Shown: piece by piece, positions 19,031 through 61,779 of the stretch
Numbering within the stretch: position 1 is the first letter of the stretch
How the letters are laid out: each line of letters opens with the position of its first letter
From: a virus
DNA: 64,000 nt
IMG/VR virus record: IMGVR_UViG_3300042691_007361
Location: 32,001-96,000 of that record
Reading direction: 5' to 3' (one strand)
Translations under genes and position numbers: made by a program
The notes under the pieces: generated by a model
Told to the model about the DNA's origin: nothing
Seen by the model: only the letters and a program-made list of their open reading frames with translations
Database searches by the model: none

Positions 19031-19047
19031 GCTCCCCATTTTTTTTT
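19011..19047. terminator. Bidirectional terminator at the convergence of the two gene blocks
   Basis: A-rich tract, GGGGAGC-AATAA-GCTCCCC, then a T-tract. Confidence 0.85.
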
Positions 19048-22000
19048 AGTTAAGGTTTTGGAATGTCTCTCTAGACTTGATTGCATGTATTGGGTCATAG
19101 TTCTTACCTCTGACACCAAAGATACCCCCTATGTGGTTCCATAGTTTATAGTCTCCTTCTTCCTGCCAGAAGTATGGACCAACATCTTGTTTATAGATTG
19201 CTGAGTCATCTCCTGTAGCCATGTGGAATAGGTCTGCCATTATCTTTAATGTGTTACCTATTATTGGTCCTGAAGCTAGGGAAGCTGGATTAATGAAGTT
19301 CATGAAGTCATCAAATCCTACTATAGGAACTAAGAGCTCATTCTCTGATTTTACTGCCATAAGTTGGTAAAGTAAGTGATTAGAAAAATAACCCATTGCT
19401 CCCCAATCTTTTTCTCTTTTTCTGAGTTTGTTGAAACGGTCTTCATCATCATCATCATATCCAAAGATAAATCCAACAGCTAGTCCCATCATAGCAAGGT
19501 AAATACCTTCAGCTAACATTCTTCTAAATGCAGCTTTTTCTTTATCAGATGCCATTGGATAATATTTACCCATGGTTTTTACTGTTCTCCACATTAATTG
19601 AAGACCGGATATGTAGTAACCTTTTGTAAGGGTGTTCATGTTAAAGTCATAGACCTCTCCTCCAAAGTTTTCTTTAGAGGTATCAAATTGGAATCTATGT
19701 ACAAACATTGGTAATGAGAATAGACGGTAGAAAGTAAAGAGTCTAAATCCAAGATACTTACTTGCCAGTGGTGTATCTAATTGGTCTATTAGACCATTAA
19801 GTCTTTTACCTACTCCCTGTACCTTAAGTTTGAAGTCATTGAAGAGTGCATTCTCAGAGATGATAAGCTCATCTCCTTCTTTTACATCTGCCGGATCTTC
19901 AATGTCATTCTTTTTCATCAAGTCCTCTACAGTAAGATTGTATTTCTTTGCTACTGACTCAAGTGAGTCACCTACTTGATATACATGGTTTATTGATTGT
20001 ACTCCATACTCAGGATCAATACCATCTTTAAGTTTAATCATACCTTTATCATCAAGCTCAAATGCATCTGAGTATCTAATCTTCTGTATATTCCCTGCTG
20101 AATCTGTTTGGTCAATGTATTTGTTATACATCATTCCCCAGAATACTTCAAGACCAGCTTCAACTTCAGCAAGCTTTCTAGCATCATACATCCATGTCAT
20201 ATCTAACATGTCTTTAAGGAAACTTCTAGAAGCTGATTTACTGAAGTCTTTTTTAGTCTTACCTGTGATAGGGTCAAAGTACTCCATCATTTGTATATCA
20301 AGAGACTTAGGTCCATGTGTATATATACCTTTTGTCATCAGCTGAATAGTAGCTGTATATGCTCTATACTTACCTAGAGCAAGTGACTTAGCTGTTATAT
20401 ACTCTGCTCCGGCTGCTTCAATCATAGACTGGAACAACATACCGTAACGGTTCTTAGCAGCAGAGACCATATCTAATGCAATAAAGGATCTACTTGTATT
20501 TCCCATAAGTGCGTTAGCTAGCTTAGTAACTCTTACATTTTTTTCATTAAACTCAGCATTGACTTTACCGTAGAAAGTTCTCTCAAGGAATTCATCAAAT
20601 GCTTTTGCTCTTTTGTTATCTCCTGTAGGTATAAAAGAGAGCATGCCTGTTGACTTCTTAATTTGCTTACTGATTCTGTTCATGTCTTTTATGGCATTCT
20701 CAGAATTGTTAAGCACATCACTTATTAGTTTTGCTATAGGCTCAATTTCAGAAAGCTTCTTCTGTACAGTAAGTGACTCCATGTAATCATAGAAACTTCT
20801 CAGGAAGTCCATTGATACATCTTGTTTCTTTAATCTATATAGACCACGTACAGGAATTCTAGTAAGTGGATTACCTAGTAAGTCAGTACCAATAGCAGTA
20901 GCCTCAGCATTGTAGTTAAACATCCATTCAGCAGCATCTGCAGTCTTTTCTTTACCAAAGAATCTTTGACCTAGTGTTTTTGCTGAGCTTAATTTATCTT
21001 CTACATTCTCCCTGGCTTTACCAGACTGTACCATCTCTAGATTACTTCTATGAAAGAAGTTAGCATAGTCATAGTATAACTTACTACCAAAGCCTTTGTC
21101 ATCCTGAACTCGTAGATACTCTTTCTTAAGCTCTTCAAGTAACTTATATGTTGGTGAATTAAGCTTCTTAAGATCATAGTACTCTTGATTCATGTACTTA
21201 TTATCATATGCAGAATCCTTTTTACCGGGAGTATACTCTTTAGGCAAGTAATTGTTTCTGTTATCTACAGTAACTCCAACAATCTTTGGTGTAACATATT
21301 CAGGTTTAGGAACTACTTTGTTGTATTTACCACCTGGAACAGCATATCTAATAATTTCTTTCCCTGTTATTGGATGTACAAGTTTTGTAGTCTTGTAATT
21401 CTCAAGACCGATTGGTTTAGCTACAGTCCATGCAGAAGTTCTAAATACTTTAATAGCTTTTTGCTTTATTGCAGGATCCCAAACTTCTTTAGTATAATGA
21501 TTCTGTATAAACCACTGGTCAAATGCTTCACTCTTAGTTCTTGCTTCTAGTATTTTAGGTGAGTTAATAAACTCATCTGCATTATCAATAGTAACATCAT
21601 CAATACCAGTACCTCTTAAAGCATAATTAATTGCTGCTATATAGTAATCAGTAGGTTCTTTGTAACTAAGCTCTGATAAGTCTCTGAATAATACTCTTAG
21701 TTTCTCAAGCTCAAGTGGACCAAGACCCATATCATTCTTAATGTTGATAAGGTCATCATACTCTTGTCTTTCTGATTCACTAAGTGCAGGACCATTATTG
21801 ATTCTATCTTGGTAAGTTTTAAGCTTTTCTGCATCCTCAAGTGATAGACCAGACTTCTTATCAAACTGTGCTTCAAGATTTACAAGCTCTACCTCTATTT
21901 CTTTTACACGTTTTCTCTGCTCTTCAGTAAGCTGGATACCATTTACCTGACGGTTCTTATCTGTAGTCTTACCAATAATGTCATAGCGCTCTTCAATAAG

Positions 22001-25000
22001 TTCAGCTCTACGTTTAGCAATCTCAGATTTTAATCCGGGCTTATCAGTAATCTGTCTTATCTGAGCAATTATATCTCTTCTAGTTTCAACATACTTATCA
22101 GAGTATGCTACACGCATATTCTTACGGAAGAATCTTTCTAGCTCCTCATTGAAGACATCAGGCTTCTCTTCCATAGTAATACCTTTGGCTGCTAGCTTAT
22201 CAACGTAGTTATCAAGTTCTCTTTGTAAACTATCTACATCCGGTTCTCCTGTCATGAACTTTCTAGATACAGATCTGTAATGTTTCATTACAAGAGCTTT
22301 CTCTAAAGCTTCACCAGTTTTCTGAGTACCATCAGGATAGTATACATCATAAAGACTTTCATACTCCATCTTAGCTTCATCAGCAGCCGTAGCTTCAAGC
22401 ATATCATCTCTATCTTCATACTTAATATTCTGAAGAGTATTCATCTTTTCTATAGCAGCTGCTCTTTCTAGGTAAGCTTGGAAAGACGTATCTGCATTTA
22501 CAACAACTTCTGATTTGGTAAATGGATTGATAAGCTTGTTATCTTGTGTCCAGATATTAAACTTCTCATAGTATTCATCTACCATTGGACGGTGCATGTA
22601 CTTCTTCTCAAAGTCAATAAGGTTCTTGTAAGCTTCTTTTACTAGAGTCTTATCCTTTTTATCCTTGGCATTCTCATACTCATTCTTCAGCTTACCATAA
22701 TCATAACGCCAGTTTTTAAACTTGTCATGATATGTAAACCTTTCATACTCTACCCACTCACCGGTTTTACTGTCTGTATAACCATCTTTATCAAGTAATA
22801 ATAGTTGTTTACCAAGTGCGGCAACATTATTCTCATTGTATCCTGCTTGTCTTAATAGTGGGTCAAGTTTACTTGCTATCTGATCTCTTTCTCTGAGTAG
22901 TTCTAACTCAGTATTAGACAACTCAATTGAGATATCTCTTGCAAATGTTCCTATAACAGGGTCATCAATGTTCTTAATAGGAATAAGATTAGCTGCTATA
23001 TAACCAATGTCTCCGCGTTCACCTTTCAAGAATGCATCATACTGCTCTCTTGTAAGACGTTTATCATTATACTGCTGAACTAATTTAGCAATGTAAGGCT
23101 TACGTTTTATATCAAGAGACAATCCTGCGTTATCAAGATTAAACTCCCGCATCAACGGTGCATTGACTACACTATCAATAAAGTCATTGATTGCATCAGT
23201 AGATATGTTATCTGCTTTTAGTGCTTTTGTGATATCAGCTTTAAACTTTTCATCAATCTCTTTACCCATAGAGGCACCCTTCTTCTCAAAGTATTGTCCG
23301 GCAAATTCTTGTTCTATATCATTGATCTTTCTAATTGCATCATTTACACTAGTATTGATACCATTAAGAGTCTTTACAAAATCAGTTTCTTTATTTAGAC
23401 CTACTGCTACACGTACATCCTCTACAAGTTTCTTCTGTCTGATCAAGAAATCTTTGAAGTACATTACCTTTGTAATCTCTTCTGTTTTAATCTTACGCGG
23501 GTCACCACTTATTTTTCCTAGTGCCTTGTCAATATTTTCAACAAAGACTTCAATATGTGCTATTGAATTTACAAGAGCTAGAGTTCTTAGTCTGAACTCT
23601 TCTTGCTGATCCTTCATTGCACTAATTGCATTCTCAGGTTTTACTTTTGTAGGATCATCGGATACAGTCTGGTATGGTCTTAAGTCTTCAGCAATGTATC
23701 TTAAAAACTTGATACCCTCTCTACTTTCTAATAAATCTTTTAGTCTCTTTGGAGATTTACTAAGCTGATCAAGTTCATACATGTTTTCTGCATATACATT
23801 ATTGATAGCTTTCTGTAACTTACCGTCCTCAACCTTTTGGAATTGAGAAACTATACTTGAGATATCTTTCTTAAACTCAGCAAAATCTGTTTCACTAAAT
23901 ACAACATTATCAATTTGAAAATCCTCATTGACCATCATATTTGCTAAGTCATCTAGAGTAGTATCAACACTAAGTTTATCTAGGTTTACCTTACCAACCA
24001 GTTCCTTGATTAGTTTCTTTATAGCAAACAATATATTCTGAATGAACTGTTTGAAACCTTCTTCAGTTTCTGTTTGCTCATTTACCTTATTCATTGCTGC
24101 TTTTTCAAGAGCATTTACAATAACCTCTTCTTTAAAACGGTCACTCTCAAACTCTAGATTAGGATAGTTAACTACTACATTTTCAATAAGTTTAACACCG
24201 GTAGCTGAAGTTCTGAGTTGATAATATAGTTTATCAAATAGACCGGGATTCATTTTTGCTATACCCTTAACAAGTGGGTGAGCATATTCATGAAGTACTA
24301 GTTCTGTAGAAAGTTTATCACCTACAAAGTATACTGTATCATTATAATAGAACGCAGCTTCTCCTTCATAAGGAGTTGTTGTATTCTCAAGTACTCTTGT
24401 TGCTTCTGCTGCACTTATCATAGTATAAGGTACACCAAATGCTTTTGCAAACTTATCTCCTAATCTTACTGCAATCTCCTTTGCCTTCTCCTTTTTCTGA
24501 GTTTCAGGGTCAGCAGCAAAGTTTTCATTGAAATCATTAACTTCTTCTTCATCTTGTTCTTCTGTAGTTTTAATTCTATCAGCTAAAGGTTTAATTACTA
24601 CTTCAACTGTATAGGCTTTTCTCTCTGATCTTGAGAGACTTATGACACTAGGAAACTTATCTGCCAGAGCTTCTACAATAGCAACATTAGGTTTGAAGAT
24701 CAACTCTTCAGCAGCCTTTTGTTCTACTATAGAACCATAATTAGTAAATCCTCTTGTTACATAGTACTTACCCTTTAAAGGATGTATTACACCAGATAGT
24801 AGAGATTGAATAGCTCTATCAGTAAGAAAAGGATTCACCTCAAATGCCTTCATAACATTTTGACGTACCTTCTGCTTATCATTTGTAAGCCAGTCTTTAA
24901 CTTCTTTAGGAGTAGGATAATAGTACTCATCATTAGGACCAACCTTTCTTACAACAACTGAATAGTCATGTACAAACTTTTCAGCTAGGTCTGTCCCATA

Positions 25001-34000: not shown

Positions 34001-36858
34001 ATAGATTTCTTAACAGGAGTATCTTTCATTTCCTGTTTTGGATTCTTAGCAAAAGATCTAAAGTCTTCAGCTAGCATCTCTTCTATCTCTAGGTATGATT
34101 TATTAAGATAAGGCTTATTACCTTTCTTATCAGTATAGTTTCTTACCTCATTGTATAGGCTAGTCTTCTGATCATTGGTTAGATAAAGCTGAGAGAATGC
34201 ATGCCATGCTTCATGGTATACATCAACCATTGTTCCTTTGTTGATTTGAATCTTACCAAGTGTATCACCAGATAACAATGTCTGACCTGATACTACAAAG
34301 CGCGCATATACATCTGAGTTAACTAGGTTAGCTGCGTGATCAATACCAATCAATCCTTTAAGTGGATTGAACTTACTATTCCACCAATTATTAGCTTCTT
34401 CTACCTGAGCTTTTGTAGCATCATTAGGTAAGTAACCTGCACGGTCAAGACCTTTCCAGTTCTTATTTAAAAGATTAGCTGTATTAGTATTCTTGTTTGT
34501 TGGCGTAACTGGATTTTGATTTTGCTCAATATCTTCAATAACAGGAGATACAGGTGTCTTATCTTCATCAGTTGGAACTTCAATCTCTAGTTCTTCAGCC
34601 TCTTCTGGTACTGCTGGTTGACTATATTCACTTACATCTTTCTCAGCAATAACACCAATATAATCTCCTGTAGATCCATCTTTGTTTACTTTAAAGATTT
34701 CAACTACATCCTTATATGTTACACCGTCTGCAACTAATTCATCTCTAACCTTGAGTCTAACAGCTTCACCTTCTGTAGGGAAGTTTGTGTCTTTGTAACT
34801 CTTATCACCTTTAGTAATAATAAGAGTCTTGTTAGGATAGTATGCTTTTGCTTCTGCATCTGCACCTGGTACATCTACTTGGTAGTTAGCATAGAACTTA
34901 CCCATATAGAAACCTGACTTAGGTGACTTTGCTGTAGCATCTAATTCTCCTGCTTCTTTTACTAAATCAACAATCTGATCTTTAAGCTTCTTAGTTTCAG
35001 TTCTGTTATCTTGAGATACTTTGTCTTTAGCCTGTTGGATAATTGTATTAGTTTTATTCGGTGCTGCAAAGAAGATATAACTATTAACAGAGTCCTTGTT
35101 TACATCTCTAAGGTTAATTGTTGCAGGAAGAGTTTTTAAATAATCAATATAATTTCCAAATGTAAGTCTCTTTGTATCAGCATTATACACAAAGTAACGT
35201 TCATTCTTTAAAAGATCACTGTTAAATGTCATCTTTGAAGGAAACATTTTATCCTTTCTGCCTTTACCAGACATTAACACATCATAGATCTTCTTTTCAT
35301 ATGATGCTAACTGATCATCAGAAAGTGCTTCTACAACTACTTGAGAAAGATCAATTGTATTATCTAGAAACTTACGTGATTGATTTTGTTGGAAAGTCTC
35401 ATTAGAATAATTAAAGTAGAACTCCTGATTAGGAATATTTGTAGAAGTGCTATGTCTTCTTGCTCTATAGTCAATCTTGTTATTAAAGAACTGATAATAG
35501 AAATCTGTTCTTACTTTGAATGGTAAGTTTCTATCTGTTAATACTTTAGATACTTGTTTTGCTACATCATCAGTAGTATCTGGTCTATCTATTACAACTT
35601 CAGTACCGTTAATAGTAATTGTAGCATATCCTTTCTTGAATCCTGCTCTATCTTTCTGTACTGTCTTGATGCTTTTAAATACTTGCTTATCAATGTCAGC
35701 CTTCTTAGAAAGGTCAGAAAGAAGAATTGTTTTTCCTACTAGACCCTCAAGAACACCTGGGCTTATACCAGATATAGGTAATGTTATCTCTTCTTTATTG
35801 TTTAGGACTCTTTCTTTGATATTATATAGAAGAGCCATTTCATTTTGTTGCTCTTGTGCTATACTATTAATTACTGCTGGATCATTTGTTTTATACAATG
35901 ACATTGCAATTTCTGCAGGAGAAAGAACAGACTGATATCCATAGATATTGGATACACTGTACTTACCATTCTCTAATCTTGTATCTCTTAAAAACTGATA
36001 TACAAGTTTACCTCCATCAGCTTTAGTACTTATATCTCCATTTTCTGAGAAGTAGACAAACTTACCATCTCCATCAGTCATCACTAATAGTACTTGCTCA
36101 TCTGCAGGTGTTACACCCTCAGCAGTTTTAGCAGTCTTCTTAATTGACTTTGACCGGATGATGATATTTTTAGTATAGTTATCTAGCTCATCTTGATTAA
36201 TAGATGTAAGCTGAACAGCTTTAAGCTTTAAAGTTGTACCTTGGTATACTAAACTATCTGCTGCAGAATCAACACCATCAGTCTCAGTCTGAATCTTATT
36301 CAGAGTATTATAGATAGTTCTTTTAGACTCATCAAGAGTTTCAATAAACATATCTACTCTAGTAGGGTCAGCTGCAATTAGTTCTTGGGATGTACCACTT
36401 AGTGACGTATATGGTCTAAAGCGCTCAGAAGGATAGTAAAAAGTACCCTCTGGGTCCATCTCTTCAGTATTACCTGCTTCACCCTTTAATGTATTTACAT
36501 AAGCTCTAAGAAACTTTTTTGATGTTTCCTTATATGTATTGATTACATTATTGATACCGTTGTCAACATCTAAGTATGAACGCCCTAGCTCAGCTAGAGA
36601 GTTTAAATCTAACTTTGTAAAGCTTGGGTTCTGAATAAAGTCTGTGTTGTACAGATCAATAATCATACGTGGTACATGCTGAATTAATTTAGCAGCAGTT
36701 TCAGGAGTTGAAGCTTGAGCTTTATTACCATATACATAAGCCATATAGTCTGCAGGAGAAAACGGTTCAGCTCCCTCCTTTAATGAATCAGACATATGTT
36801 TGTATATACTCTTATATAATTTTTCTACTGTTGTACTAGATAAGGCACAATTGATCAT
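25051..36858 (-). CDS. Giant virion RNA polymerase (double-psi beta-barrel, crAss-type) fused to zincin, RNase H and ASCH-like domains (3935 aa)
   Basis: Catalytic AGSDFDVDK (DFDVD at 29275-29289) preceded by RIPIQ, plus EADGAG and HKF. HEAWH at 34201-34215. RNase H motifs at ~25685-26163 and an ASCH-like domain at ~25282-25630. Confidence 0.9.
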   Translation of the reverse strand: MINCALSSTTVEKLYKSIYKHMSDSLKEGAEPFSPADYMAYVYGNKAQASTPETAAKLIQHVPRMIIDLYNTDFIQNPSFTKLDLNSLAELGRSYLDVDNGINNVINTYKETSKKFLRAYVNTLKGEAGNTEEMDPEGTFYYPSERFRPYTSLSGTSQELIAADPTRVDMFIETLDESKRTIYNTLNKIQTETDGVDSAADSLVYQGTTLKLKAVQLTSINQDELDNYTKNIIIRSKSIKKTAKTAEGVTPADEQVLLVMTDGDGKFVYFSENGDISTKADGGKLVYQFLRDTRLENGKYSVSNIYGYQSVLSPAEIAMSLYKTNDPAVINSIAQEQQNEMALLYNIKERVLNNKEEITLPISGISPGVLEGLVGKTILLSDLSKKADIDKQVFKSIKTVQKDRAGFKKGYATITINGTEVVIDRPDTTDDVAKQVSKVLTDRNLPFKVRTDFYYQFFNNKIDYRARRHSTSTNIPNQEFYFNYSNETFQQNQSRKFLDNTIDLSQVVVEALSDDQLASYEKKIYDVLMSGKGRKDKMFPSKMTFNSDLLKNERYFVYNADTKRLTFGNYIDYLKTLPATINLRDVNKDSVNSYIFFAAPNKTNTIIQQAKDKVSQDNRTETKKLKDQIVDLVKEAGELDATAKSPKSGFYMGKFYANYQVDVPGADAEAKAYYPNKTLIITKGDKSYKDTNFPTEGEAVRLKVRDELVADGVTYKDVVEIFKVNKDGSTGDYIGVIAEKDVSEYSQPAVPEEAEELEIEVPTDEDKTPVSPVIEDIEQNQNPVTPTNKNTNTANLLNKNWKGLDRAGYLPNDATKAQVEEANNWWNSKFNPLKGLIGIDHAANLVNSDVYARFVVSGQTLLSGDTLGKIQINKGTMVDVYHEAWHAFSQLYLTNDQKTSLYNEVRNYTDKKGNKPYLNKSYLEIEEMLAEDFRSFAKNPKQEMKDTPVKKSIFRKILDFLKALFGKVGSAQVVVDKASVANQDYPATASELFNKLYFAGSSKKASKIFMNTYSPSIDNVMWDMLNRGIERVDARGEDALSRQDSILINESIDSVISGLVDSLNEGFGKKSSTIKLLTDPENRAVAYESVKEIFQDKLKEFQDELGSITLTPFSALETIGELESNAAAIFKSKKGDNKYVFLANQIDNFENLNPDTKGGERIKGQSYYGIDIVADFYSHKTIKSEDNDQADIIIVKDLRDAQVQFDNYKRGGATSITDLIIKEGPQYKPLTFEQEELLDKIRLLQVTLDNWGDDKKGVVKYHKENSRFDIIREDYTEESYEEKDADGEPVDETSAEGSSDSIVKTGEVGKKSLEQLAQKEAIYVIKSLFKKEKGEVVPNKLGFNQLADFSKIWKIITREIGGVKDINLMYEKLEKAAQTYSPELQQLVYSKLPNPQRIERSAEFDVLASIWQTFSRPRVPYMQLTGYLDKSYDYMTGKLTVDKVSVEVTDASIDASNVIRKFQAEFKAQSERDNPYITKVENVTTLNDLSKLVSDFADKRRPNELDVNKSFEFARAIGFIFDDLKVIKDRLKDNVDYYGLQYLYTIVKDLANIQAKGTTASQAAISVLGDFVVNPLTTFQAKIPGTILPGLKVKEVYQKNIVKRLAELQMRYGLEGSNFSVLNPEKNLVNEFIDDHSISRQVDAINRVNNIKELYSNPTAAENPFKYMSYLNPKINSFVNNNRSQILNSIFSTEGNGDKIKGRSLKLFIDAGTQIANEDIGTTTTSLDIYSKFLQEMHLMLKGGIQEFIRHASKKSSFGVKVDGGVVSYPGKGEDKNLYVDMSMFTPNGGGDIYAINNILIPYLGAEYERIMKFKDNKDEFLKYGGYNKVVARGENGEKIYAGEVLTSFDNVLSEDTKKELLSEEVMNAIKESGGTLEDFLRTDRTGLKQKVINDMINYFGEQTADNLSFLGVQEYIDQSLFDKLGPNDLNEVEQKAAIVKSYTYNSWIHNFETINLFYGDMAQYNHLKEEMHKRNTGSTSGGPKFLTDVMAQDFINNIWNKDRVDDDGNIIERVTYASKVAAEEKNDDYNKFHYDGTFNTAVVKDVERPSVYLKDIEAGLRAEYKLNGKSEAQINDLLEKELKPYKEMNEADGAGVIGIDAYRTLKKLENAWSNKQEELYKKIINKVPIKASDVVNYFPVYKLQNFGPLANTDLPLTSFHKFALMPLIPSEIAGSQLEHLHKEMMRNNIQYLTYESGSKVGNVTSNGKADVIFADDTQKELKKELTLTPNTIYLEYLKSVTNINAKYKTIVTFPTQLRGLILDGLFDKGAITKPEFDKLATKYDDVVAQYTNLLKLEILEEIGYEQKNGKYIGNIKNFLELIQKELGKRDIPDHLLRSIGVDFNGNIKTDLSLHLEADTIERMLLSVLTKRLIRQKVKGEALVQVPSTMYNGLWDQTVQFDKASEKDKKKYLGSNNLPSYHPGKDGTNAMKIAIALQGDFVNLLKLQYKGEEIGNISRLNEAIKDDEWLDTGNNRKAITLAGARIPIQNLNSMEFGEVWHFLDPAAGNKVVVPTEIVAKAGSDFDVDKIFWMMPHINTQGEYATGAISNEELKQKIDDLKKIKPKPGMKKPSPKALIQKQKKALENELIQATKDILATPGNFASLVRPNETHLVKGTADEFEPYVIEYNRYKNMHGEEQRMGPADDSGKRKKAISPTRILEVGYNLHKHDVNMVGKDTLGIEALQNKKHPIFKSIGAKMPKTYKESFFDENSGKYVDGERDYETRLLLPHAEIDGHISLSNNVNVAGTRIADVYSHIMNGLLDVEKDPWAFFIQANLETISILNYLLEAGVPEKTAIAFVSQPTIREYGSNQKLLKSTFSTLATKEIPQATFTKFKAANRIEKRIPYQRRALYLKQINENAYSRAIAKVGDNDTISVVLDGDNAPQVTLVKNLKTAIQKGITTPAKVVSIYRGAEVSKKNLLYKRFGSLVTNDTAYDAAVLATSEPGILNDKGYFDEETLIASIKDPKNPKYKAIQDAAFLHFLEIEKQIKGLEAVKRQSNPDTKLLKTIQQVRKREQAFLDSTETSKVDPELPEAIRNKSILRSFYQGDLALDLVEPVMPLRLNKEVSDFITSKLGGNKTEISRKFGQGMDGEERFTSEFNNAVINYIFQNYMSNFVDSKGNISELPDYYRGSQIVIKPGVQNGVEYKDGVIYVDRGQLNRDFTDKKYLKTSDSNDSFTKRGLTSFKVSDDPFRSQASFNRYVVEREYLRSIYTEGESYTPAFEKFLAQRALLNTFNRDAIVGTDEFSYTNLVMNTIREFSQLKDRYPILGQISVLPYKGKEKIVQLNDRNILKGELGDVYFQNLRELADVNVRKVSSEADNKRLSDVFRIFSLMMIHQHGVGYTKYGFNKALDDTMYLEVMRSAAGTFMQNNLNPASLSKVYNNLMSDSQFKNYVVEPKVFNSNQVTAFPLEETISTRTAIDNLVNELGENEFNQMVKDLNPDLTIIDVPENVDLQKLYSDDYDDYVDVTYQSLNIILDRLATAGVNVDKLSNLFHDFSTDQPVNISEFSLWVDNNIKAPEVEESPEILEKDMGDNQQLSLFEEEKVEAKENKTAKMSTVQEPIRVYSDGSDIKGTGNIGFGAVYKYQDKEFGLSGTQEGEAVKDLQAKFPNAKFSNPTMEMLALSTVLETFQDTGEHLFIHQDYNGAVNYNGLWQHSEGSLQRADKPWKSKEPYIQYLIDKAVAAIAKIEANGGSVKITWVKGHSGEEMNDLADKYAKSRKNFNEFLKPMSNQLTQPLSFKGKMSFSYGDNKRPGVTADSTIAAVALGERTATTRYSDQKGFDYWKKAKTGDIIEWVSDNGDSLKVKVTKPLHKLVGSGKTASQWSQLEGWSTDYFNKVVRPKLDKAWQIEFEYIPDTYKNAINTAQESGFDFSAISVGNYSMLDDFYNTLTAEQQQKLGNLDDVIESYFEMYADTMSEEQYIEHLKNCKL

Positions 36859-36869
36859 AATAAAATGTT

Positions 36870-39800
36870 TTAACAGTCAGAGGTTACGTCTTCAAATAGT
36901 TCAGTATCTACAGCATCAGTAAGTTGTTTGTCTGCTTCTTTCTTAAGAGCATCTTTTCTATCTGAACTTTTAAGTAGATTGTTGATGTTTTCAAATGATT
37001 CTTCCATAAAGTCTTTTTCATCTTTTGTCAATGGAGCTCCCTCATCTTCTGAACCTTCTGTTTTCATAACCTCTTGTTTTAATATAAACATTTTATTTAA
37101 CTCTGCAAAGTTAAATGTGACTGGGACTGATGGTACTGTTGTAGTATTTACATCAGCAAACTGAGCAACCTTATCAATAGATTTAATGGATACAATGTCA
37201 CCCTCTGCTATAGCAAGCTTGTTATTAACAAATATAGGATTAATTGCGACAAGTTGGTCACCTACTTTGACATTCTCAGGTGTAAGTTTTACTGCTACTC
37301 CACTATCTAATTGCCTCTGTCTTTCATTGATAAGTTCCTGTACTGCCGTTACACTTTCTACAGAGATATTATTCTTAGCAATAGCCTGTGCAAAGTCAGA
37401 CTTGAATAGGTCTAATACTTCTTGTGTAGCCTCAGCAATAGGTTTTCTTAATGTATCAATGTCCAGATCAATAACTGGTTCTTCTTGTGGTACCTGTATG
37501 TCACTATCTTCTGCCGGAATGTTACCTCCAGTAAAGTCTTCATTTTGAGCAGGTCCTGTCTCTTCAGTTTCTGGCGCAGCTTTAATCTTTCTTGGAATAA
37601 CAGAGTCAATTTTTTCCTGGATATCAGGTGTTATCTCAAGTGGTATTCTGTATTTACCATCCTCTAATGCACCTTTAGCAGTTGGTTTACCTGCTCTAGT
37701 TATTCTACCTGTGTTAGCCTCATAGTCTATTTGAATCGGTAATAGACTGACCTTAGCTTGTTTATCAGTAAGATTGTAAAGAAGATTAGCATATGCTGTT
37801 TGTTGTAATGTATAGATTTCTTTTTTGGAAGATTGATTACCTTCTACATTGAATCCTCTCCATTTAACTTCTTTACCAGTCTTAGTATCAATGATGTACA
37901 CATTACCAAGTCTATCTACAGCAAGTAAGTCAACTTCACCAGCTACTCCTGCCTCTTCATCATAAAGAACAAGACCTCTTTCTGTACCATCATTGAGTAC
38001 AACTCTTGATAATACATAAAGACCTTCTTCATCTACTAGTCTTTTTATGTTTCTGAGGTAGCCAAGGCTCTCTGGGTCTTCATTAAATAAAGCATCATAT
38101 GCTTCTCTAGTAATTTTAGTATCATCAAACTTAGGCTCTTTGTCAGCAAACAAGTCACGGACTTGATCATCAATATAGTTACCTGAGATTCTAGATTCTT
38201 CATAAGTCTTCTCAGCAATTGTATTCATGACCTTATTAATTAGGTCTTCATTTGATGCAGACGGAGCTTCACTCAACATAGTATTGAGCTCATTCTGTAA
38301 CTCATTGTATGTAAAGTCACTAAATCCAGGAAGCTTCTGCTTTCTCAATTCAGTGATGAAGTTACTTATTGATGACTCATTAAATCCTTGCTCAGCTATT
38401 GTAGTATTGAAAGTAGCTTTAACATCACCTTCAGCTTGATACTTATATTCTTCTGTCTCAAACTTTCTAATGACTTGAGTTACTCTCTGCATTATCTGGT
38501 TGTTAATCAAATAACCACCTTTACCTTTAGTGATATCATTTTGGAAATCAATAATAGGTTGTATTAAATCAATAGTTTTTCTTTGGGCTTCACTGAATCC
38601 CTCTCTTACTTTACCAGATAGATAATCATTTATCTTTCTAATACTATATGCAAGTCTTGCGGATCTTTGTTTTATATCAGGAGTTTGTTCTTCTTTAGCA
38701 AGAGAATCTAATTCAGTCTGATATGTTTTAAGTATTGATCTTAACTGAGCTTCAGGTATCTCATTGATCTTCATTGTTTTATCACCAACTTTGATCATCG
38801 GTACCTCTGGTTCTCTAACCATTGCTTTACCAAGCTCCTGTTCTTTATTATAATCATCAACTAATCTAGCTGCAACAAAACTACTTTTTAAGAATGAGTC
38901 TAATGCCATATCAAAATCATCTCCTGATAAATCAGTAAGACCATTTTCATCAGCATATTCTTCAAAAGCAAGAACTATTCTATTATACAAATCTGGTGGA
39001 AACTCATCCATATCCATATCTGTTGTATAGATAACCCTTTCTTTTACCTCACCTGGATTCTCTACACCTTTTTCAGCAGCTGATTGAAGTATGTCTGCTT
39101 TCTTTTCTGCAAACTCATCCATGATTTCTTTAACAGCATCTGGATCCGGTTCAGTAACCATAACAAACTTAGTTGCTTCTGCAAAAGAATCAGATGTGCC
39201 AAGTTCTTTTAATGATTCTGGTGTAACTTCTTCACCATCTTTATCATTGAATCTTAATACCTCACCGTCTTTGTAGAAAGTAAGTGGTGTGCCATCTTTA
39301 CCAACTACATCTACATACTCTTTGTCTCCAAGTTGCTCAGAGATATTTTTAGATTTGATTGTCTCCTTGCCTTTAAAGTCAAGTGACCCTTGGTCTTCCC
39401 TCTTCTCATTCTTAGGTAATACATCTATTCTAGCTTGCATTTCAGCATCAAGCTTGTCAAGATCTTCTCTTACTGACTCTTCAACAATCTCCATTTCATT
39501 CTTAACTGTCTGAAGATTATTCAGCATCAAGAATGGTCTGATGATCTCATCATACATTGGGTGAGACTTACGGATAACTACTTTATGAACATCATCATAG
39601 ATCTCATCTGGTAGTATCTTCATTTCTCTCCATCTTTCAAAGTCATCTAGACTAATGTAAAGACCTTGGCTAGCTAAGTGATTAAGTAAGTCATTACCTT
39701 CTTTCTTCTGGAACTCTTGCTCTTTAAGATTCTCATAGTATTCTCTACGGTTATCATAAAGCTCTTTCATCCAAACTTTGTTGCGCTTAACATGCTCTAC

Positions 39801-42710
39801 AAATCCTTTAGGGTCATGAAGCAGGTTAATACCTCTTACCATTCCCTGAGCCTCTTTGCTTAGCAAATAGAAGTCACGAAGTTTTTCAAATGCCTCATCT
39901 ATATCACTATCAAATAAGTTATCATCATTAATGGATGCAAGTGACTTTAAGTATTCTCTGAATGTAGACTCAAGTTCCTCATTGAACTTAATGTCATTAT
40001 CATCATTGCGGATACCCAATTCATTATCAATCATCTTAAGAACTTCTTCTTCTGAAGCATCTTTGTTATCATTAATAATTCTTTGTGCTATTTCACTTCT
40101 GTCAACATAGTATCTCTTAAAGCTGGTGATACCATCATCTAGTTTTTTTAATACCTCAAGTCTTCTTTTCTTTTTAGCTAACTCTTTTGGATCAGCTTTA
40201 GTTGACTCAAGTGTATCAACTTCAGTTTTTAATATCTCAGCTTCATTAGATAAAAGAGCTTGATCAAACAATACTTTCATATCATTGAATGATGCTTTTT
40301 TAAGCAAGCCTGAGCTTGTTACATCATTAATAATACTAGACATACGTTTAGTAGTGTTATCAAAAGACTCATTAAAGAATATAGCATTTCTCTTTGCTTC
40401 TTCCCATGCATGATATGTCAATGAAGCATCTTCATAGTCTGGGTCTCCTTTTTTATAGTTACTTATGTTAACTGGATTTGGAAATCTATCGTTTATATCA
40501 TTAAACTTCTTCTCCATTTTCTGAGCCCTATCAATTACTTCAGGTAGTTTATCAAGATACTCTTGACCTTTACCTGCAGGAATTCCAGGAACCATCTCTT
40601 CAAACTCTTCAGCAGTAAGCTGTTGTAAACCTTTTAATTGGTCTGTGTAGTAATCCATCATTCCCTTATCAAGTATAACTTGCATTTGAGAAATGAATGC
40701 TGCATCAGATGCATCTCTTGCTACCTTTTCAGAAGCAGTTACTTTAAGGTCTGTTGCAGAAGCTTGAACACCATAGTTCTTTAAGTTATTATCAAAGAAG
40801 TCTTTTAGATCTACACTAGATAAAGTATTAACCATTTGCTGACCATATTTTGTTCTGGCCATTTTATATTTAGTGTAAGCATCATTATCAAAGATTCTAT
40901 TATAACCAATAGAAAATGCTTGTGGTAATGCGTTTAATGGAGAAGCAAACATACCCATAGTAAAACCAGAAGCAAAAGTTTCCAAACCTCTAGCTGAGAA
41001 CTGATCTTTAACAGCATTCTTAACTAGACCTCTAGCATACTGATGTGTTGCTACATTGGGATTACTATATGAATCAATGTAATAATTCTTTGTAGCATCA
41101 GAAATAACTTCCTGTAAATTCTCTTGTAATGCTTCACCTATATTTGCTTTAAAGTATGCAGCACCAGCAGGAATAGATTTACTTAATGGTCTTTGAGCAA
41201 AACCTTTTACAGTATTCCAAAGATTCTTTTCTCTCCATTCAAGCTTTGATGTATTAACAGTCTTACCTGTTTTAAGAGTTGTCTTCTTATTTATTTTAAG
41301 AATATCACCTCCATCAAGATTTAGTAAATCCTCAGTTTTGGATTTAAGAAAGTTTGCTATACCTCCTCTACGGTTAACAAGGTTAGGAAGTACAAGTTTA
41401 TTTGATGCATATATAAGACCAGTGTTCCATATTAAATCAGTCATACCTGCTTCTTTAGCTTGAAGCATCATTCTTTCTTGAGTCTTATTATCTGGTGCTT
41501 CTTGCTCATCTCTATAATAATCATCATAGAGTTTATTATATGTGTCATTCTCAGCCATACCACCTTCTAGTCTAGCTTCTGACAATGCCATGTTAACTGC
41601 TCTTACATCACCGTAAAATCCACCAAATGTTTTCTTAGTTGCATCATATGCTCTTGCTAGTCCTGTAAGATTATCCTCATTCTTAGCAATTTTAATTCCT
41701 GCTTCTGTAAGGTTAGAAAGAGGATTAAAGAACTTAAAGGTATTACTACTCACAGTCTTTTCTACTCTAGCTGCATTCCAAAAGCTTCTTGCACCACTAA
41801 CAGACTTTAATCCATTTAGTGTAGCATTCATAGCTTTCATACCATCAATAGCATTTTCAGCAGTGTTTAAACCTCTTAGAATGCTTGGTATTTTTCTAGC
41901 GTTGTTTGCTGTAGTAGCAAATAAAGCTGGGGCACCACCCCCAGCAGTAGCTACTGTAAATGCAGCAGCCGCAGCTTCTTCAGCCAAAGCTTCAGTAATA
42001 ACACCTGCTGTATAAGCAAATGCCATTCCTGTATTATTTAACCATGCACCTACACCACCTCTTGAGGAGTAACCAATAGCTGATTGCTCAGCGCTCATCA
42101 TTGCAGCCTCTTTATCAGGACTGAAATCTCCTTGAAGCATTTTACCTAAACTCTGTGGAGCTGACTTAAATGCTTGTGTAAACATTGGCCAGAATGAATG
42201 AACCATCATTCTTTTAGCATCTGCCCAACCTGATGTACCTGCATTATAAATAGATTCATTATCACGGAAAGGGTGAAAGCCTAATTTATTAAAGGTCTCA
42301 TCTCCCATCTTAGAATATCTCTTATAGAATGACCCACCGTCTGGTCCAGCATCATAAGAATATATTCTTGCATATTCATTCTTGTCTTGATTAGCTGCAG
42401 CTTTAGCTGAGTAAAAATCACCTATTGCTTTTGAAAAATCTTTTGCAGATAACTTTGAAGGATTTGCTTTAGCTCCTGGTTTACCAACTATGTCTTTACG
42501 TACAGTAGTTTGCTGATTATCTAATTGACCTGCACTAGGTATAATAGGAATAAAGTTTGTACCTCTATCAGGGAAATTAATTTCAGGTCTTGTAATCCTG
42601 TCTCCCTCAAAAGCAGATAAACCCTGCTCATCAAGAGAGGGTTGGTTTATCTTTCCGTAAGCTGGCCCAAGTGAGTCAAGTGGGCTAAATGATTCATTAG
42701 TATCCGCCAT
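36870..42710 (-). CDS. Giant virion cargo protein (1946 aa) with Ala/Gly-rich hydrophobic N-terminal segment and C-terminal PD-(D/E)XK nuclease domain
   Basis: GMAFAYTAGVITEALAEEAAAAAFTVATAGGGAPALF, and AGEVDLLAVDRLGNVYIIDTKTG...YTLQQTAY at ~37780-37950. Confidence 0.8.
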   Translation of the reverse strand: MADTNESFSPLDSLGPAYGKINQPSLDEQGLSAFEGDRITRPEINFPDRGTNFIPIIPSAGQLDNQQTTVRKDIVGKPGAKANPSKLSAKDFSKAIGDFYSAKAAANQDKNEYARIYSYDAGPDGGSFYKRYSKMGDETFNKLGFHPFRDNESIYNAGTSGWADAKRMMVHSFWPMFTQAFKSAPQSLGKMLQGDFSPDKEAAMMSAEQSAIGYSSRGGVGAWLNNTGMAFAYTAGVITEALAEEAAAAAFTVATAGGGAPALFATTANNARKIPSILRGLNTAENAIDGMKAMNATLNGLKSVSGARSFWNAARVEKTVSSNTFKFFNPLSNLTEAGIKIAKNEDNLTGLARAYDATKKTFGGFYGDVRAVNMALSEARLEGGMAENDTYNKLYDDYYRDEQEAPDNKTQERMMLQAKEAGMTDLIWNTGLIYASNKLVLPNLVNRRGGIANFLKSKTEDLLNLDGGDILKINKKTTLKTGKTVNTSKLEWREKNLWNTVKGFAQRPLSKSIPAGAAYFKANIGEALQENLQEVISDATKNYYIDSYSNPNVATHQYARGLVKNAVKDQFSARGLETFASGFTMGMFASPLNALPQAFSIGYNRIFDNDAYTKYKMARTKYGQQMVNTLSSVDLKDFFDNNLKNYGVQASATDLKVTASEKVARDASDAAFISQMQVILDKGMMDYYTDQLKGLQQLTAEEFEEMVPGIPAGKGQEYLDKLPEVIDRAQKMEKKFNDINDRFPNPVNISNYKKGDPDYEDASLTYHAWEEAKRNAIFFNESFDNTTKRMSSIINDVTSSGLLKKASFNDMKVLFDQALLSNEAEILKTEVDTLESTKADPKELAKKKRRLEVLKKLDDGITSFKRYYVDRSEIAQRIINDNKDASEEEVLKMIDNELGIRNDDNDIKFNEELESTFREYLKSLASINDDNLFDSDIDEAFEKLRDFYLLSKEAQGMVRGINLLHDPKGFVEHVKRNKVWMKELYDNRREYYENLKEQEFQKKEGNDLLNHLASQGLYISLDDFERWREMKILPDEIYDDVHKVVIRKSHPMYDEIIRPFLMLNNLQTVKNEMEIVEESVREDLDKLDAEMQARIDVLPKNEKREDQGSLDFKGKETIKSKNISEQLGDKEYVDVVGKDGTPLTFYKDGEVLRFNDKDGEEVTPESLKELGTSDSFAEATKFVMVTEPDPDAVKEIMDEFAEKKADILQSAAEKGVENPGEVKERVIYTTDMDMDEFPPDLYNRIVLAFEEYADENGLTDLSGDDFDMALDSFLKSSFVAARLVDDYNKEQELGKAMVREPEVPMIKVGDKTMKINEIPEAQLRSILKTYQTELDSLAKEEQTPDIKQRSARLAYSIRKINDYLSGKVREGFSEAQRKTIDLIQPIIDFQNDITKGKGGYLINNQIMQRVTQVIRKFETEEYKYQAEGDVKATFNTTIAEQGFNESSISNFITELRKQKLPGFSDFTYNELQNELNTMLSEAPSASNEDLINKVMNTIAEKTYEESRISGNYIDDQVRDLFADKEPKFDDTKITREAYDALFNEDPESLGYLRNIKRLVDEEGLYVLSRVVLNDGTERGLVLYDEEAGVAGEVDLLAVDRLGNVYIIDTKTGKEVKWRGFNVEGNQSSKKEIYTLQQTAYANLLYNLTDKQAKVSLLPIQIDYEANTGRITRAGKPTAKGALEDGKYRIPLEITPDIQEKIDSVIPRKIKAAPETEETGPAQNEDFTGGNIPAEDSDIQVPQEEPVIDLDIDTLRKPIAEATQEVLDLFKSDFAQAIAKNNISVESVTAVQELINERQRQLDSGVAVKLTPENVKVGDQLVAINPIFVNNKLAIAEGDIVSIKSIDKVAQFADVNTTTVPSVPVTFNFAELNKMFILKQEVMKTEGSEDEGAPLTKDEKDFMEESFENINNLLKSSDRKDALKKEADKQLTDAVDTELFEDVTSDC

Positions 42711-45642: not shown

Positions 45643-45662
45643 ATCTTAATTTATCTATATTG

Positions 45663-45694
45663 TAAAAATACCAAAATCAAATAAGTTTACTAAA
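45663..45694 (-). promoter_or_regulatory. Putative promoter TTTA-N20-TATTTTTA
   Basis: Same geometry as the elements at 52262-52293 and 62371-62402, resembling the Bacteroidota TTTG-N19/21-TAnnTTTG consensus. Confidence 0.55.
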
Positions 45695-45704
45695 CATATA
45701 AAGT

Positions 45705-48005: not shown

Positions 48006-48006
48006 A

Positions 48007-52245: not shown

Positions 52246-52261
52246 GATAGGGTATATAATA

Positions 52262-52293
52262 TAAATATAGTAAAATCTATGTTAATCAGTAAA
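52262..52293 (-). promoter_or_regulatory. Putative promoter TTTA-N20-TATATTTA
   Basis: Intergenic, with geometry shared by two other sites. Confidence 0.55.
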
Positions 52294-52303
52294 CTTTATA
52301 AGT

Positions 52304-61108: not shown

Positions 61109-61779
61109 TATCTAAGTGCATTTTGGCTATCATCAGCTCCATCTGTTGGAATCTTAATTGACGTAGCAAGTTCTTGAATTACATATTGCTCAATCTCAGA
61201 AAATAAATACTCTGGTAGAGTAAGGTTCTGATCTTGTTTTACTACACATTGATCTTCAGGATTACATTGGAAGTCACCAGTTGATCCTTCAAAGATTGCT
61301 TCTATTTTAATAGCATCCCATTCTACATTTGGTAAATAGAGATACCCATTGTGAAACCAGAAGTATGCTCTTTTATTATATTTGAATGTAGTTGTTTTTG
61401 TCATTGAGGCAAAAGTACCGGGCTCAGTACGGAATACTTTTATACTACCATCTATTGAAGATACTGTACGGAATACTGGACCAAAAGCTCCTGTAAATAC
61501 ATTAGGTAGTTTTTCCTTGGTTCTTTTGAAATAACATTCTGAGTATACTCCTGTACAATCTGCTTCTACCCTATCTACATCAATTAACTCAACATACTGT
61601 AGATATGTAAAGAGAGAACTAATCTTCATTAGTTTATTCTGATTGTCTTCTCTTTTAAGTAATGTCTTACCGTATTTTATAATAGCAAAGTAAATACTTC
61701 TGTCTGTAAGAAATGGATCTTCCTTTACAGCTTTAAGTGCAGTTCTTACTCTTGATATTGCTTCACCTATTGTTGTCAT
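61108..61779 (-). CDS. Putative tail ring protein
   Basis: YFWFHNGYLY, IEAIFE and a C-terminal LP...I...EL...P.D..DD pattern, in the tail module context. Confidence 0.55.
   Translation of the reverse strand: MTTIGEAISRVRTALKAVKEDPFLTDRSIYFAIIKYGKTLLKREDNQNKLMKISSLFTYLQYVELIDVDRVEADCTGVYSECYFKRTKEKLPNVFTGAFGPVFRTVSSIDGSIKVFRTEPGTFASMTKTTTFKYNKRAYFWFHNGYLYLPNVEWDAIKIEAIFEGSTGDFQCNPEDQCVVKQDQNLTLPEYLFSEIEQYVIQELATSIKIPTDGADDSQNALR

What the first reader, a model, noticed from the sequence alone, without database searches (positions are those of the whole stretch)
19046..42710. Three giant cargo proteins have cysteines only at the ends that face each other: possible head-to-tail disulfide 'ejection train'
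Seen in sequence (manual scan): across 1946+3935+2001 = 7882 aa I find only four Cys. They are the last residue of the 1946-aa protein (...VTSDC*, codon 36873-36875), residue 4 of the RNAP (MINC, 36847-36849), the third-last residue of the RNAP (...KNCKL*, 25060-25062) and residue 3 of the 2001-aa protein (MKC, 25043-25045). The two outer termini carry no Cys. This is the minimal pattern needed to link A-B-C covalently in gene order. Established: crAss-like giant cargo proteins, including the virion RNAP, are packaged and must pass through the tail largely unfolded, and disulfides are stable outside the cell and reduced in the cytoplasm. Inference: the proteins are chained by two inter-protein disulfides (or shared metal sites) so that they are ejected in order and then released by cytoplasmic reduction. 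I do not know of this mechanism being described.
Basis: partly seen in the sequence, partly recalled or inferred. Interest (0 to 1): 0.93.

Follow-up and report, generated by a model that had tools for sequence, protein, structure and literature searches.

The report
Terminal cysteines chain crAss cargo proteins
Three giant proteins of this crAss-like phage, one of them its injected RNA polymerase, contain no cysteine except one at each end that faces the next protein, a rule relatives keep wherever the genes are separate and drop where they are fused, which suggests untested disulfide links joining them into one 0.9-MDa thread.

Summary
A (1946 aa), B (3935 aa, DFDVD-type virion RNA polymerase) and C (2001 aa) hold four Cys in 7,882 residues: A's last residue, B's residues 4 and 3933, and C's residue 3. 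The whole seven-gene cargo block has only these 4 Cys in 11,860 aa; the rest of the genome has 1.59%.

The rule holds widely. It is kept in 344 database homologues and 70 distinct IMG/VR loci. In those loci 133 of 135 junctions have a Cys on both facing ends, and the other two are a start-call error and a frameshift. No outer end carries a Cys. It also holds in crAss001, phi14:2, DAC15, p-crAssphage, crAss002, cr1_1 and Fpv1.

The pair disappears where two genes are fused (A+B or B+C). A new pair appears where the thread is cut elsewhere or an extra 242-762 aa protein is inserted. The A|B cut lies on opposite sides of the zincin domain in different lineages.

A solved precedent exists. Cyanophage A4 has the same signature, and its cryo-EM structure shows the Cys1715-Cys5 disulfide (PMC12002296).

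Best reading: head-to-tail disulfide tethers in the virion. The bond itself, ordered ejection and release by reduction are untested. I found no paper describing this for Crassvirales.

The parts
36870..42710 (-). Protein A, 1946 aa, first chain member. Sole Cys is the last residue (codon 36873-36875). PD-(D/E)XK-type nuclease region at residues ~1510-1700 (about 37758-38111 for the PHROG match).
   Evidence: 118 of 120 homologues have exactly one Cys, 0-3 residues from the C-end. C1946 is invariant in alignment A1. AF2 of the last 250 aa gives three terminal helices and then a 6-residue coil carrying the Cys.
25051..36858 (-). Protein B, 3935 aa, crAss-type virion RNA polymerase and middle chain member. 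Cys4 (36847-36849) and Cys3933 (25060-25062) are its only Cys.
   Evidence: C4 and C3933 are invariant in A2. blastp to phi14:2 gp66 gives E 1.4e-21. AF2 of residues 1-300: residues 1-7 are coil, then an all-alpha domain at 8-127.
29275..29289 (-). DFDVD catalytic motif of B (residues 2524-2528)
   Evidence: D2524, D2526 and D2528 are invariant in A2. The motif aligns with DFDID 1361-1365 of phi14:2 gp66, which is shown to be catalytic in bioRxiv 10.1101/2020.03.07.982082.
34201..34215 (-). HEAWH zincin-type motif of B (residues 882-886). It serves as a marker that the A|B cut lies upstream of this domain here, whereas the cut lies downstream of it in crAss001.
   Evidence: Y881, H882, E883 and H886 are invariant. 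The homologous motif lies in the A-type protein of crAss001 (gp47 residue 2157), p-crAssphage gp45 and crAss002 gp32.
25690..26160 (-). RNase H domain near the C-end of B (residues 3567-3723), a variable payload position in relatives
   Evidence: Pfam PF00075, E 1.3e-10; PHROG 531.
19046..25051 (-). Protein C, 2001 aa, last chain member. Sole Cys at residue 3 (25043-25045). LysM at residues 1694-1731 (19859-19972). Its start overlaps B's stop (TAATG).
   Evidence: 95 of 104 homologues have a Cys at residue 3-6 and none has a Cys in the last 8 residues.
42697..54763 (-). Four further cargo-block genes (981, 766, 1412 and 819 aa) with no Cys at all. They lie between the muzzle-like 1768-aa protein and A.
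   Evidence: The synteny matches crAss001 gp44-gp47. CrAss_Ring_1 and CrAss_Ring_2 Pfam hits lie just upstream at 60071-61779.

Best explanation
A, B (the virion RNA polymerase) and C are packaged cargo proteins. In the virion they are tethered head to tail, in gene order, by two inter-protein links: A Cys1946 to B Cys4, and B Cys3933 to C Cys3. The links are most likely disulfides. The result is one thread of 7,882 residues and 893 kDa. Other crassviruses encode the same thread as two genes, or as four to five genes.

Shown here: the facing terminal Cys are functionally coupled in pairs, and the pair stands wherever the thread is cut.

Inferred:
- The coupling is a disulfide, by analogy with phage A4, where the same signature is a solved disulfide.
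- It forms once the particle is outside the reducing cytoplasm.
- The near-total absence of other Cys prevents wrong cross-links.
- The tether keeps the proteins in fixed order and 1:1:1 ratio for packaging, and for threading one after another through the tail.

Least certain is release by reduction in the host cytoplasm. It is possible but not required, because fused forms exist.
For: (1) Conservation.
- A family: 254,092 aa hold 118 Cys, all within the last 8 residues and none internal.
- B family: 98 of 120 have a Cys in the first 7 residues and 118 of 120 in the last 8.
- C family: 95 of 104 have a Cys in the first 7 residues and 0 of 104 in the last 8.

(2) Same-genome pairing. In 70 distinct IMG/VR loci, 133 of 135 junctions have a Cys on both facing ends. 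The two exceptions are a mis-called start and a poly-A frameshift. No Cys occurs at 0 of 58 outer N-termini or 0 of 57 outer C-termini.

(3) Cultured or named crassviruses obey the rule.
- phi14:2: 1797 aa (last residue); 2180 aa (residues 3 and 2179); 1421 aa (residue 3).
- crAss001: gp47 (2339 of 2341); gp50 (5 and 2404 of 2412); gp49 (5).
- DAC15 follows the same pattern.

(4) The cause is not at nucleotide level.
- In crAss001 and DAC15 the A gene is on the opposite strand to B.
- The flanking residues and the offset of the Cys vary.
- TGT and TGC codons both occur.

(5) Fusions remove exactly the facing pair.
- B+C fusions (p-crAssphage gp44, crAss002 gp33) keep the N-terminal Cys and have no C-terminal Cys.
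- A+B fusions keep only the C-terminal Cys (cr1_1 gp076; P0225, P0231, P0233, P0235-P0239). Fpv1 gp33 (4401 aa, sole Cys at 4400) fits by length and RNA-polymerase position only; BLAST found no A-type match in it.
- The next protein still has its N-terminal Cys in Fpv1 gp34 and cr1_1 gp077, the two fusions whose neighbours I could see.

(6) New cuts gain a pair.
- Nine loci carry extra 242-762 aa links, each with a Cys at residue 3 and a Cys at the last or third-last residue.
- L016 X residues 1-168 match window C residues 1-170 (E 2e-32), so there C is cut in two.
- The A|B cut lies before the zincin domain in the window's clade and after it in crAss001, p-crAssphage and crAss002.
- A FastTree of the polymerase core needs at least 2-3 split/fused changes.

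(7) Precedent. A-4L gp27 (1717 aa, sole Cys at 1715) and gp26 (1114 aa, sole Cys at 5) form a disulfide in the cryo-EM structure (PMC12002296).

(8) Context.
- crAss001 virions contain disulfides, and gp46, gp47, gp49 and gp50 are found in the virion by mass spectrometry (PMC10172136).
- The phi14:2 homologues are annotated as found in the virion by MS/MS.

(9) AF2 places both partner Cys on short coil tails next to helices.
Against: - No physical evidence exists for the bond in any crassvirus. The crAss001 paper lists disulfides but none for cargo, which was not resolved in its maps.
- The terminal segments of A and B showed no detectable homology, by sequence HMM or Foldseek, to the A4 pair, so the precedent is an analogy.
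- Gut crassviruses live in an anoxic habitat where spontaneous oxidation is less obvious.
- The genome encodes no thioredoxin or Erv1-type oxidase that might control the redox state.
- N4 injects a Cys-free polymerase and two Cys-free partners without any terminal Cys, so a tether is not a general need.
- Some gut phages tolerate several internal Cys in B (p-crAssphage gp44 has 7).
Confidence: 0.68

Rival explanations
1. The facing Cys pair up, but through a bridging metal ion or another thiol chemistry rather than a disulfide.
For: Thiolates bind metals. It would work in an anoxic gut. The comparative data show pairing, not its chemistry.
Against: Only the single Cys is conserved at each end. 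There is no CxxC, and no conserved His, Asp or Glu beside it; the neighbours vary freely. Two thiolates alone make a poor Zn or Fe site. In A4 the same signature is seen as a disulfide.
Confidence: 0.1
2. The Cys do not join neighbours in gene order. Instead, proteins with two terminal Cys close on themselves and A pairs with C, or each Cys links to another virion part such as the portal or capsid interior.
For: The 1-2-1 valence also fits a closed B plus an A-C dimer. The A4 structure has only two members and cannot tell the two models apart.
Against: Each fusion removes exactly the two Cys that face each other and leaves the other pair as it was. Under self-closure, every fusion or fission would force all partners to re-pair. 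Fused genes join A's C-end to B's N-end by a peptide bond, which is the same topology as the proposed link. If the Cys bound a fixed virion site, the outer ends and the other Cys-free cargo would be expected to carry them too; they never do.
Confidence: 0.07
3. The Cys codons are a by-product of a nucleotide signal at gene junctions (translational coupling, a promoter), of relaxed selection at protein ends, or of chance.
For: In the window all four codons are TGT and lie within 30 nt of a junction. B's stop overlaps C's start.
Against: In crAss001 and DAC15 the A and B genes are convergent, on opposite strands, and still carry the pair. The distance of the Cys from the stop or start varies (0-7 residues from the C-end, residue 3-6 at the N-end) and the neighbouring codons are not conserved. 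The outer termini never have a Cys (0 of 58 and 0 of 57). The chance probability is about 1e-11 for the window alone.
Confidence: 0.01

Closest known systems
Cyanopodophage A4 (Anabaena phage A-4L) pre-ejectosome, gp27-gp26 disulfide (PNAS 2025, PMC12002296)
   Same: The upstream ejection protein has its sole Cys third from the end (1715 of 1717). The next gene's protein has its sole Cys at residue 5. The two are joined by a disulfide in the cryo-EM structure, where a C-terminal helix of gp27 sits in an all-alpha part of gp26. The window's A also ends in helices followed by a short tail with the Cys, and B starts with a short tail followed by an all-alpha domain.
   Different: A4 has a single link between two proteins and no RNA polymerase. 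The paper does not present it as a general rule. I found no sequence or fold similarity to A, B or C. The crassvirus case has two to four links in series and moves with gene fission and fusion.
RNA-polymerase cargo block of cultured crassviruses: phi14:2 g067-g066-g065 (gp66, the virion RNAP) and crAss001 gp47-gp50-gp49
   Same: These are homologous proteins in the same order. They share the DFDxD polymerase motif and are found in virions by mass spectrometry. They show the same terminal-Cys rule.
   Different: The papers describe the trio and note that some phages fuse them into one polyprotein, but they mention no cysteine or link. The window's proteins are larger (7,882 aa against 5,398 and 6,102). 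The A|B cut lies about 1,000 residues earlier relative to the zincin domain.
Coliphage N4 virion RNA polymerase gp50 with ejection proteins gp51 and gp52
   Same: A giant polymerase is packed in the capsid and injected, presumably unfolded or as beads on a string (PMC13434306). All three proteins are entirely free of Cys (4,294 aa), as is the interior of A, B and C.
   Different: There are no terminal Cys, so no such tether. The polymerase is a single polypeptide of a different fold family.

Membership tests
Crassvirales virion RNA polymerase (phi14:2 gp66 type) | DFDxD catalytic motif in a giant virion protein | tested here: met
   DFDVD at B residues 2524-2528, invariant in 49 aligned homologues. 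It aligns with DFDID 1361 of gp66.
Crassvirales virion RNA polymerase (phi14:2 gp66 type) | Sequence similarity to gp66 and crAss001 gp50 around the catalytic core | tested here: met
   blastp of B residues 2036-2540 against gp66 residues 913-1377 gives E 1.4e-21; against crAss001 gp50, E 1.2e-13.
Crassvirales virion RNA polymerase (phi14:2 gp66 type) | Two double-psi beta-barrel fold and presence in the virion | not tested
   B is too long to fold whole, and no virion data exist for this uncultured phage.
Crassvirales (order) | crAss-type tail ring proteins and cargo-block synteny | tested here: met
   Pfam CrAss_Ring_1 (E 6e-9) and CrAss_Ring_2 (E 1.7e-24) at 60071-61779. The gene order ring, muzzle-like, cargo, A, B, C matches crAss001. 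The replication module lies on the other strand.
A4-type head-to-tail disulfide between ejection proteins | Upstream protein with its only Cys within a few residues of the C-end, and next protein with its only Cys at residue 3-6 | tested here: met
   The signature is identical in A-4L gp27 and gp26 and at both junctions of the window.
A4-type head-to-tail disulfide between ejection proteins | A physical S-S bond between the two Cys in the virion | not testable with these tools
   This needs non-reducing gels, MS or cryo-EM.
A4-type head-to-tail disulfide between ejection proteins | Homology of the partner proteins to gp27 and gp26 | tested here: not met
   HMMs of the A, B and C families find nothing in A-4L gp26-gp29 at E <= 1. 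Foldseek of the terminal models finds no A4 chain.
Split intein / protein trans-splicing | An intein half of about 35-100 aa at the facing ends, with the Cys at the intein-extein border | tested here: not met
   The Cys sit 0-2 residues from the C-end and at residue 3-4. No Hint or intein domain appears in the Pfam scans.
Bacterial lipoprotein (lipobox Cys) | A signal peptide of about 15-25 aa before the Cys | tested here: not met
   The Cys is at residue 3-6 with no preceding hydrophobic leader.

The most novel reading that the evidence does not exclude
Crassvirales use a general 'terminal-cysteine code'. Any protein that carries a Cys at residue 3-6 and another at its C-end is built into a defined-order, redox-sensitive thread of injected proteins. 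The polymerase is the middle link. Under this rule, genes can be cut, fused or inserted, and new effector links added, without losing co-packaging or ordered delivery. The same solution arose separately in cyanophage A4.
Probability: 0.5. Interest if true: 0.9.

Novelty: new variant of a known kind. Interest (0 to 1): 0.8.

Why it matters
How podophages pack megadaltons of protein and pass them one by one through a narrow tail is an open question. The crAss001 and N4 structure papers both say that the order and mechanism of cargo ejection are unknown. A covalent head-to-tail tether would explain three things: fixed stoichiometry, ordered threading, and the extreme avoidance of cysteine in injected proteins. 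The rule predicts from sequence alone which proteins belong to the injected chain, including small unannotated ones. It also explains why gene fission and fusion are so free in this block. It can be tested at once in cultured phages (phi14:2, crAss001, DAC15) with a non-reducing gel. Crassvirales are the most abundant phages of the human gut, so the rule touches a very large group.

Tried and rejected
I replaced the latter with a profile scan of IMG/VR.
- Searches with no match: DNA and protein searches of the junction regions against the phage collection. Only weak domain hits to crAss001 and others came from A and C.
- Locating the lost Cys positions inside natural A+B fusions failed. HMMs of A's last 120 aa and B's first 150 aa gave no significant match, because the window's junction lies in a roughly 1,000-aa stretch that those fusions lack.
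- Generic docking modules are not supported. The idea was a shared 'tail' domain at every C-end and a shared 'head' domain at every N-end. BLAST finds no similarity between A and B C-ends or between B and C N-ends. The X-protein hits are explained by ordinary fission and fusion.
- Homology to A4 or N4 proteins: none by HMM. The Foldseek PDB search of both terminal models gave nothing at E <= 0.001; the only hint is a weak SH3-like barrel in A's C-terminal region.
- Phage-encoded thioredoxin or Erv1 oxidase in this genome: none. The Erv1 control rang nowhere, so that answer is empty.
- Codon test: nearly all terminal Cys codons are TGT in these AT-rich genomes, with TGC in phi14:2 A, DAC15 A and A-4L gp26, so it says little.
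- Rejected explanations: nucleotide motif, relaxed selection at ends, chance, split intein, lipobox (see rivals and membership test).
Full report
**Observation.** The three minus-strand ORFs are exactly as described.
- A = 36870..42710, 1946 aa, ends ...VTSDC*.
- B = 25051..36858, 3935 aa, begins MINC and ends ...KNCKL*.
- C = 19046..25051, 2001 aa, begins MKC.

The depletion is wider than reported. The four genes upstream of A (981, 766, 1412 and 819 aa) have no Cys at all, so the block 19046..54763 holds 4 Cys in 11,860 aa. In the whole 106,795-nt record the other ORFs hold 296 Cys in 18,571 aa (1.59%), and the tail genes are Cys-rich at 3-8%. At that background about 189 Cys would be expected in the block (Poisson P(<=4) = 7e-75). 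Random placement would put all four in the 16 junction-facing terminal positions with P of about 1.7e-11.

**What the genes are.**
- B carries an invariant DFDVD (residues 2524-2528). It aligns with the catalytic core of phi14:2 gp66 (E 1.4e-21) and crAss001 gp50. The DFDID motif of gp66 is experimentally catalytic (bioRxiv 10.1101/2020.03.07.982082).
- B also has an invariant HExxH zincin motif (882-886) and an RNase H domain near its C-end.
- A has a PD-(D/E)XK-type nuclease region (PF12705 in homologues). C has a LysM domain.
- Upstream lie Pfam CrAss_Ring_1 and CrAss_Ring_2 proteins and a 1768-aa muzzle-like protein. A replication module is on the other strand.
- The order ring, muzzle, Cys-free cargo, A, B, C mirrors crAss001 gp43-gp50.

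So this is an uncultured crass-like phage, and A-B-C is its RNA-polymerase cargo block. Packaging is inferred from relatives: MS/MS annotation in phi14:2 and mass spectrometry of crAss001 virions (PMC10172136).

**Conservation.** I searched the 5.8-billion-protein collection with each protein and counted Cys.
- A family: 120 proteins at 34-91% identity, 254,092 aa. There are 118 Cys, one per protein, always 0-3 residues from the C-end, and none internal. The two proteins without a Cys have unrelated C-ends and are probably truncated.
- B family: 120 proteins down to 25% identity. 98 have a Cys at residue 3-5 and 118 have one within the last 8 residues.
- C family: 104 proteins. 95 have a Cys at residue 3-6, and none has a Cys in the last 8 residues. 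Those lacking it have shorter, different N-ends.

C1946, C4 and C3933 are invariant columns in alignments A1 and A2. The neighbouring residues vary freely (SDC*, ICE*, LKC*, NCQ*), so selection acts on the cysteine itself.

**Same-genome pairing.** A profile scan of IMG/VR gave 78 loci, 70 of them distinct, with both flanks.
- Of 135 junctions between consecutive chain genes, 133 carry a Cys on both facing ends with naive start calling.
- In L026 the second Met gives MKITC.
- In L057 the true start MVNC directly follows A's stop and is cut off by a frameshift in an A10 run.
- None of 58 outer N-termini and none of 57 outer C-termini carries a Cys.
- 507,109 residues hold 21 internal Cys.

**Order-wide check in named phages**.
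- phi14:2: 1797 aa (Cys = last residue); 2180 aa gp66 (Cys 3 and 2179 only); 1421 aa (Cys 3 only).
- crAss001: gp47 (sole Cys at 2339 of 2341); gp50 (Cys 5, 1334 and 2404 of 2412); gp49 (sole Cys at 5).
- DAC15: the same pattern.

In crAss001 and DAC15 the A-type gene lies on the opposite strand to B and C. A junction-level nucleotide signal or translational coupling therefore cannot explain the A|B pair.

**Fission and fusion.** This is the key test.
- B+C fusions. In p-crAssphage gp44 (4070 aa) and crAss002 gp33, B and C are fused (blastp). The protein keeps the N-terminal Cys: MSC in p-crAssphage, and MSC in crAss002 if Met33 is the start. It has no C-terminal Cys. The A-type partner keeps its own (1956 of 1957; 2019 of 2020).
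- A+B fusions. The B-family members without an N-terminal Cys (P0225, P0231, P0233, P0235-P0239) and cr1_1 gp076 are A+B fusions by blastp. Each keeps a Cys within the last 8 residues, and P0231, P0238 and P0239 have no other Cys at all. Fpv1 gp33 (4401 aa, one Cys, at 4400) is probably also such a fusion: its polymerase part starts near residue 1740, but BLAST found no A-type match. The next proteins of Fpv1 and cr1_1 start MAC and MSIIC.
- Extra links. Nine loci have additional proteins of 242-762 aa between B and a short C'. Each has exactly two Cys, one at residue 3 and one at the last or third-last residue. The 300-aa type is the N-terminal domain of the window's C (L016 X 1-168 against C 1-170, 37% identity, E 2e-32). 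C' matches C's C-terminal part, so there C is cut in two. Larger links match C-terminal parts of other B proteins.
- Moved cut. The zincin HExxH is inside B here (residue 882). In crAss001 gp47 (2157 of 2341), p-crAssphage gp45 and crAss002 gp32 it lies near the C-end of the A-type protein. The distance from it to the DFDxD motif is similar in all (1,444-1,667 aa). The A|B cut therefore lies on opposite sides of the same domain in different lineages, with the Cys pair at the cut each time.
- Tree. A FastTree of the polymerase core needs at least 2-3 split/fused changes. Long branches make the count rough.

**Chemistry.**
- The paper reports a disulfide between Cys1715 of gp27 and Cys5 of gp26, with gp27's C-terminal helix inserted into gp26 (PMC12002296).
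- In the A-4L genome, gp27 is 1717 aa with a sole Cys at 1715. The next gene's gp26 is 1114 aa with a sole Cys at 5. This is the same signature as here.
- I found no homology between the two systems, so it is an analogy.
- crAss001 virions do contain structural disulfides.
- No second metal ligand is conserved beside any of the Cys, which argues against a metal clasp.
- AF2 models put A's Cys on a 6-residue coil after three terminal helices. B's Cys4 sits on a 7-residue coil before an all-alpha domain. Both are exposed tails; this is consistent but not decisive.

**Topology.** A closed B plus an A-C dimer also satisfies the 1-2-1 valence. But each fusion removes exactly the two facing Cys and leaves the other pair untouched. 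A fusion also joins the same two ends by a peptide bond. Self-closure would demand re-pairing of every partner at every fission or fusion. I therefore favour the linear chain.

**Function (inference).** The thread is 893 kDa here, 694 kDa in crAss001 and 611 kDa in phi14:2. It would keep order and stoichiometry, and would let each protein pull the next into the tail channel. The absence of other Cys would prevent wrong cross-links. N4's injected polymerase and its two partners are wholly Cys-free but have no terminal Cys. So Cys avoidance is general for injected proteins, and the tether is specific to this system. Release by reduction is possible, but fused forms show it is not required. The direction of exit is unknown.

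**Novelty.** Full-text searches found no paper on terminal cysteines or cargo links in Crassvirales. The crAss001, phi14:2 and N4 papers do not mention them. One link of this kind is published for A4. This scan has already reported the same rule on other crass-like genomes, so this window is a further, very clean instance. My checks were made independently on this DNA.

**Limits.** Starts were called naively. Database proteins are not phylogenetically independent.

Noticed in passing
window 25051-26900 (C-terminal part of B) and homologues P0121-P0240: The region near B's C-end is a variable payload slot. It is RNase H here. In relatives it holds AlkB (PF13532), YbiA/DUF1768 (PF08719), RecD-like helicase domains, an AAA_33 kinase, HD/RelA-SpoT-like domains, PF18760 or PF25176. 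This looks like a set of injected effectors swapped between lineages.
   Followed up: no
L016:19436-20359, L022:8617-11807, L045:19587-20315, L057:22528-23313, L059:19929-20687, L069:21589-22461, L072:21939-23906: Small extra chain links of 242-762 aa have exactly two Cys, one at residue 3 and one at the last or third-last residue. None has a Pfam match. Some are the split-off N-terminal domain of C; others are split-off C-terminal parts of B.
   Followed up: partly
L008 (crAss002, NC_055828) gp33, locus 12088: The annotated start is probably 32 codons too far upstream. Met33 gives MSCTPSN, matching the MSC start of p-crAssphage gp44.
   Followed up: partly
L057:10136-10146: An A10 homopolymer run breaks the B reading frame 45 codons after a normal MVNCSLS start. 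This is probably an assembly or sequencing frameshift.
   Followed up: yes
L013:22201-28269 (C homologue) and P0255, P0264, P0279-P0284, P0301: Several unsplit C proteins carry one extra Cys at residue 304-317, close to where other lineages cut C into X (about 300 aa) plus C'. It may be a leftover of a former junction, or coincidence. The window has Val there.
   Followed up: partly
L006 (p-crAssphage) gp47 and gp48; L008 (crAss002) gp30: Other cargo-block proteins of gut crassviruses have a Cys close to the C-end: gp47 at 856 of 857, gp48 ...RCGGHRR, gp30 ...FRCGGKKKIA. None has an obvious N-terminal partner in the next gene. p-crAssphage also encodes thioredoxin-like genes (gp37, gp39).
   Followed up: no
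L012 (coliphage N4) gp50, gp51, gp52: All three N4 ejection proteins, including the 3500-aa virion RNA polymerase, contain no Cys at all (4,294 aa), while neighbouring gp53 and gp54 have some.
   Followed up: yes
genome G000 95044-100049 (just past the window's right end, which is genome position 96000): The tail-region proteins are very Cys-rich: 17 Cys in 498 aa, 35 in 463 aa, 9 in 180 aa and 17 in 424 aa. This fits a disulfide-stabilised tail as in crAss001 and contrasts sharply with the Cys-free cargo.
   Followed up: no
window 24278-24292 (C residues 254-258) and relatives: C carries an HExxH motif (HEYAH at 254). phi14:2 gp076 has one at a similar place (HEIMH at 245) and cr1_1 gp077 at 517. 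With the LysM domain this suggests a cell-wall-acting metallopeptidase, but no family match was found.
   Followed up: no
window 37122-37622 region (A residues ~1697-1946): The AF2 model of A's last 250 aa contains a small beta-barrel (model residues 123-181) with weak SH3-like Foldseek matches (E about 0.01, TM to target 0.6-0.7) before the three terminal helices.
   Followed up: partly
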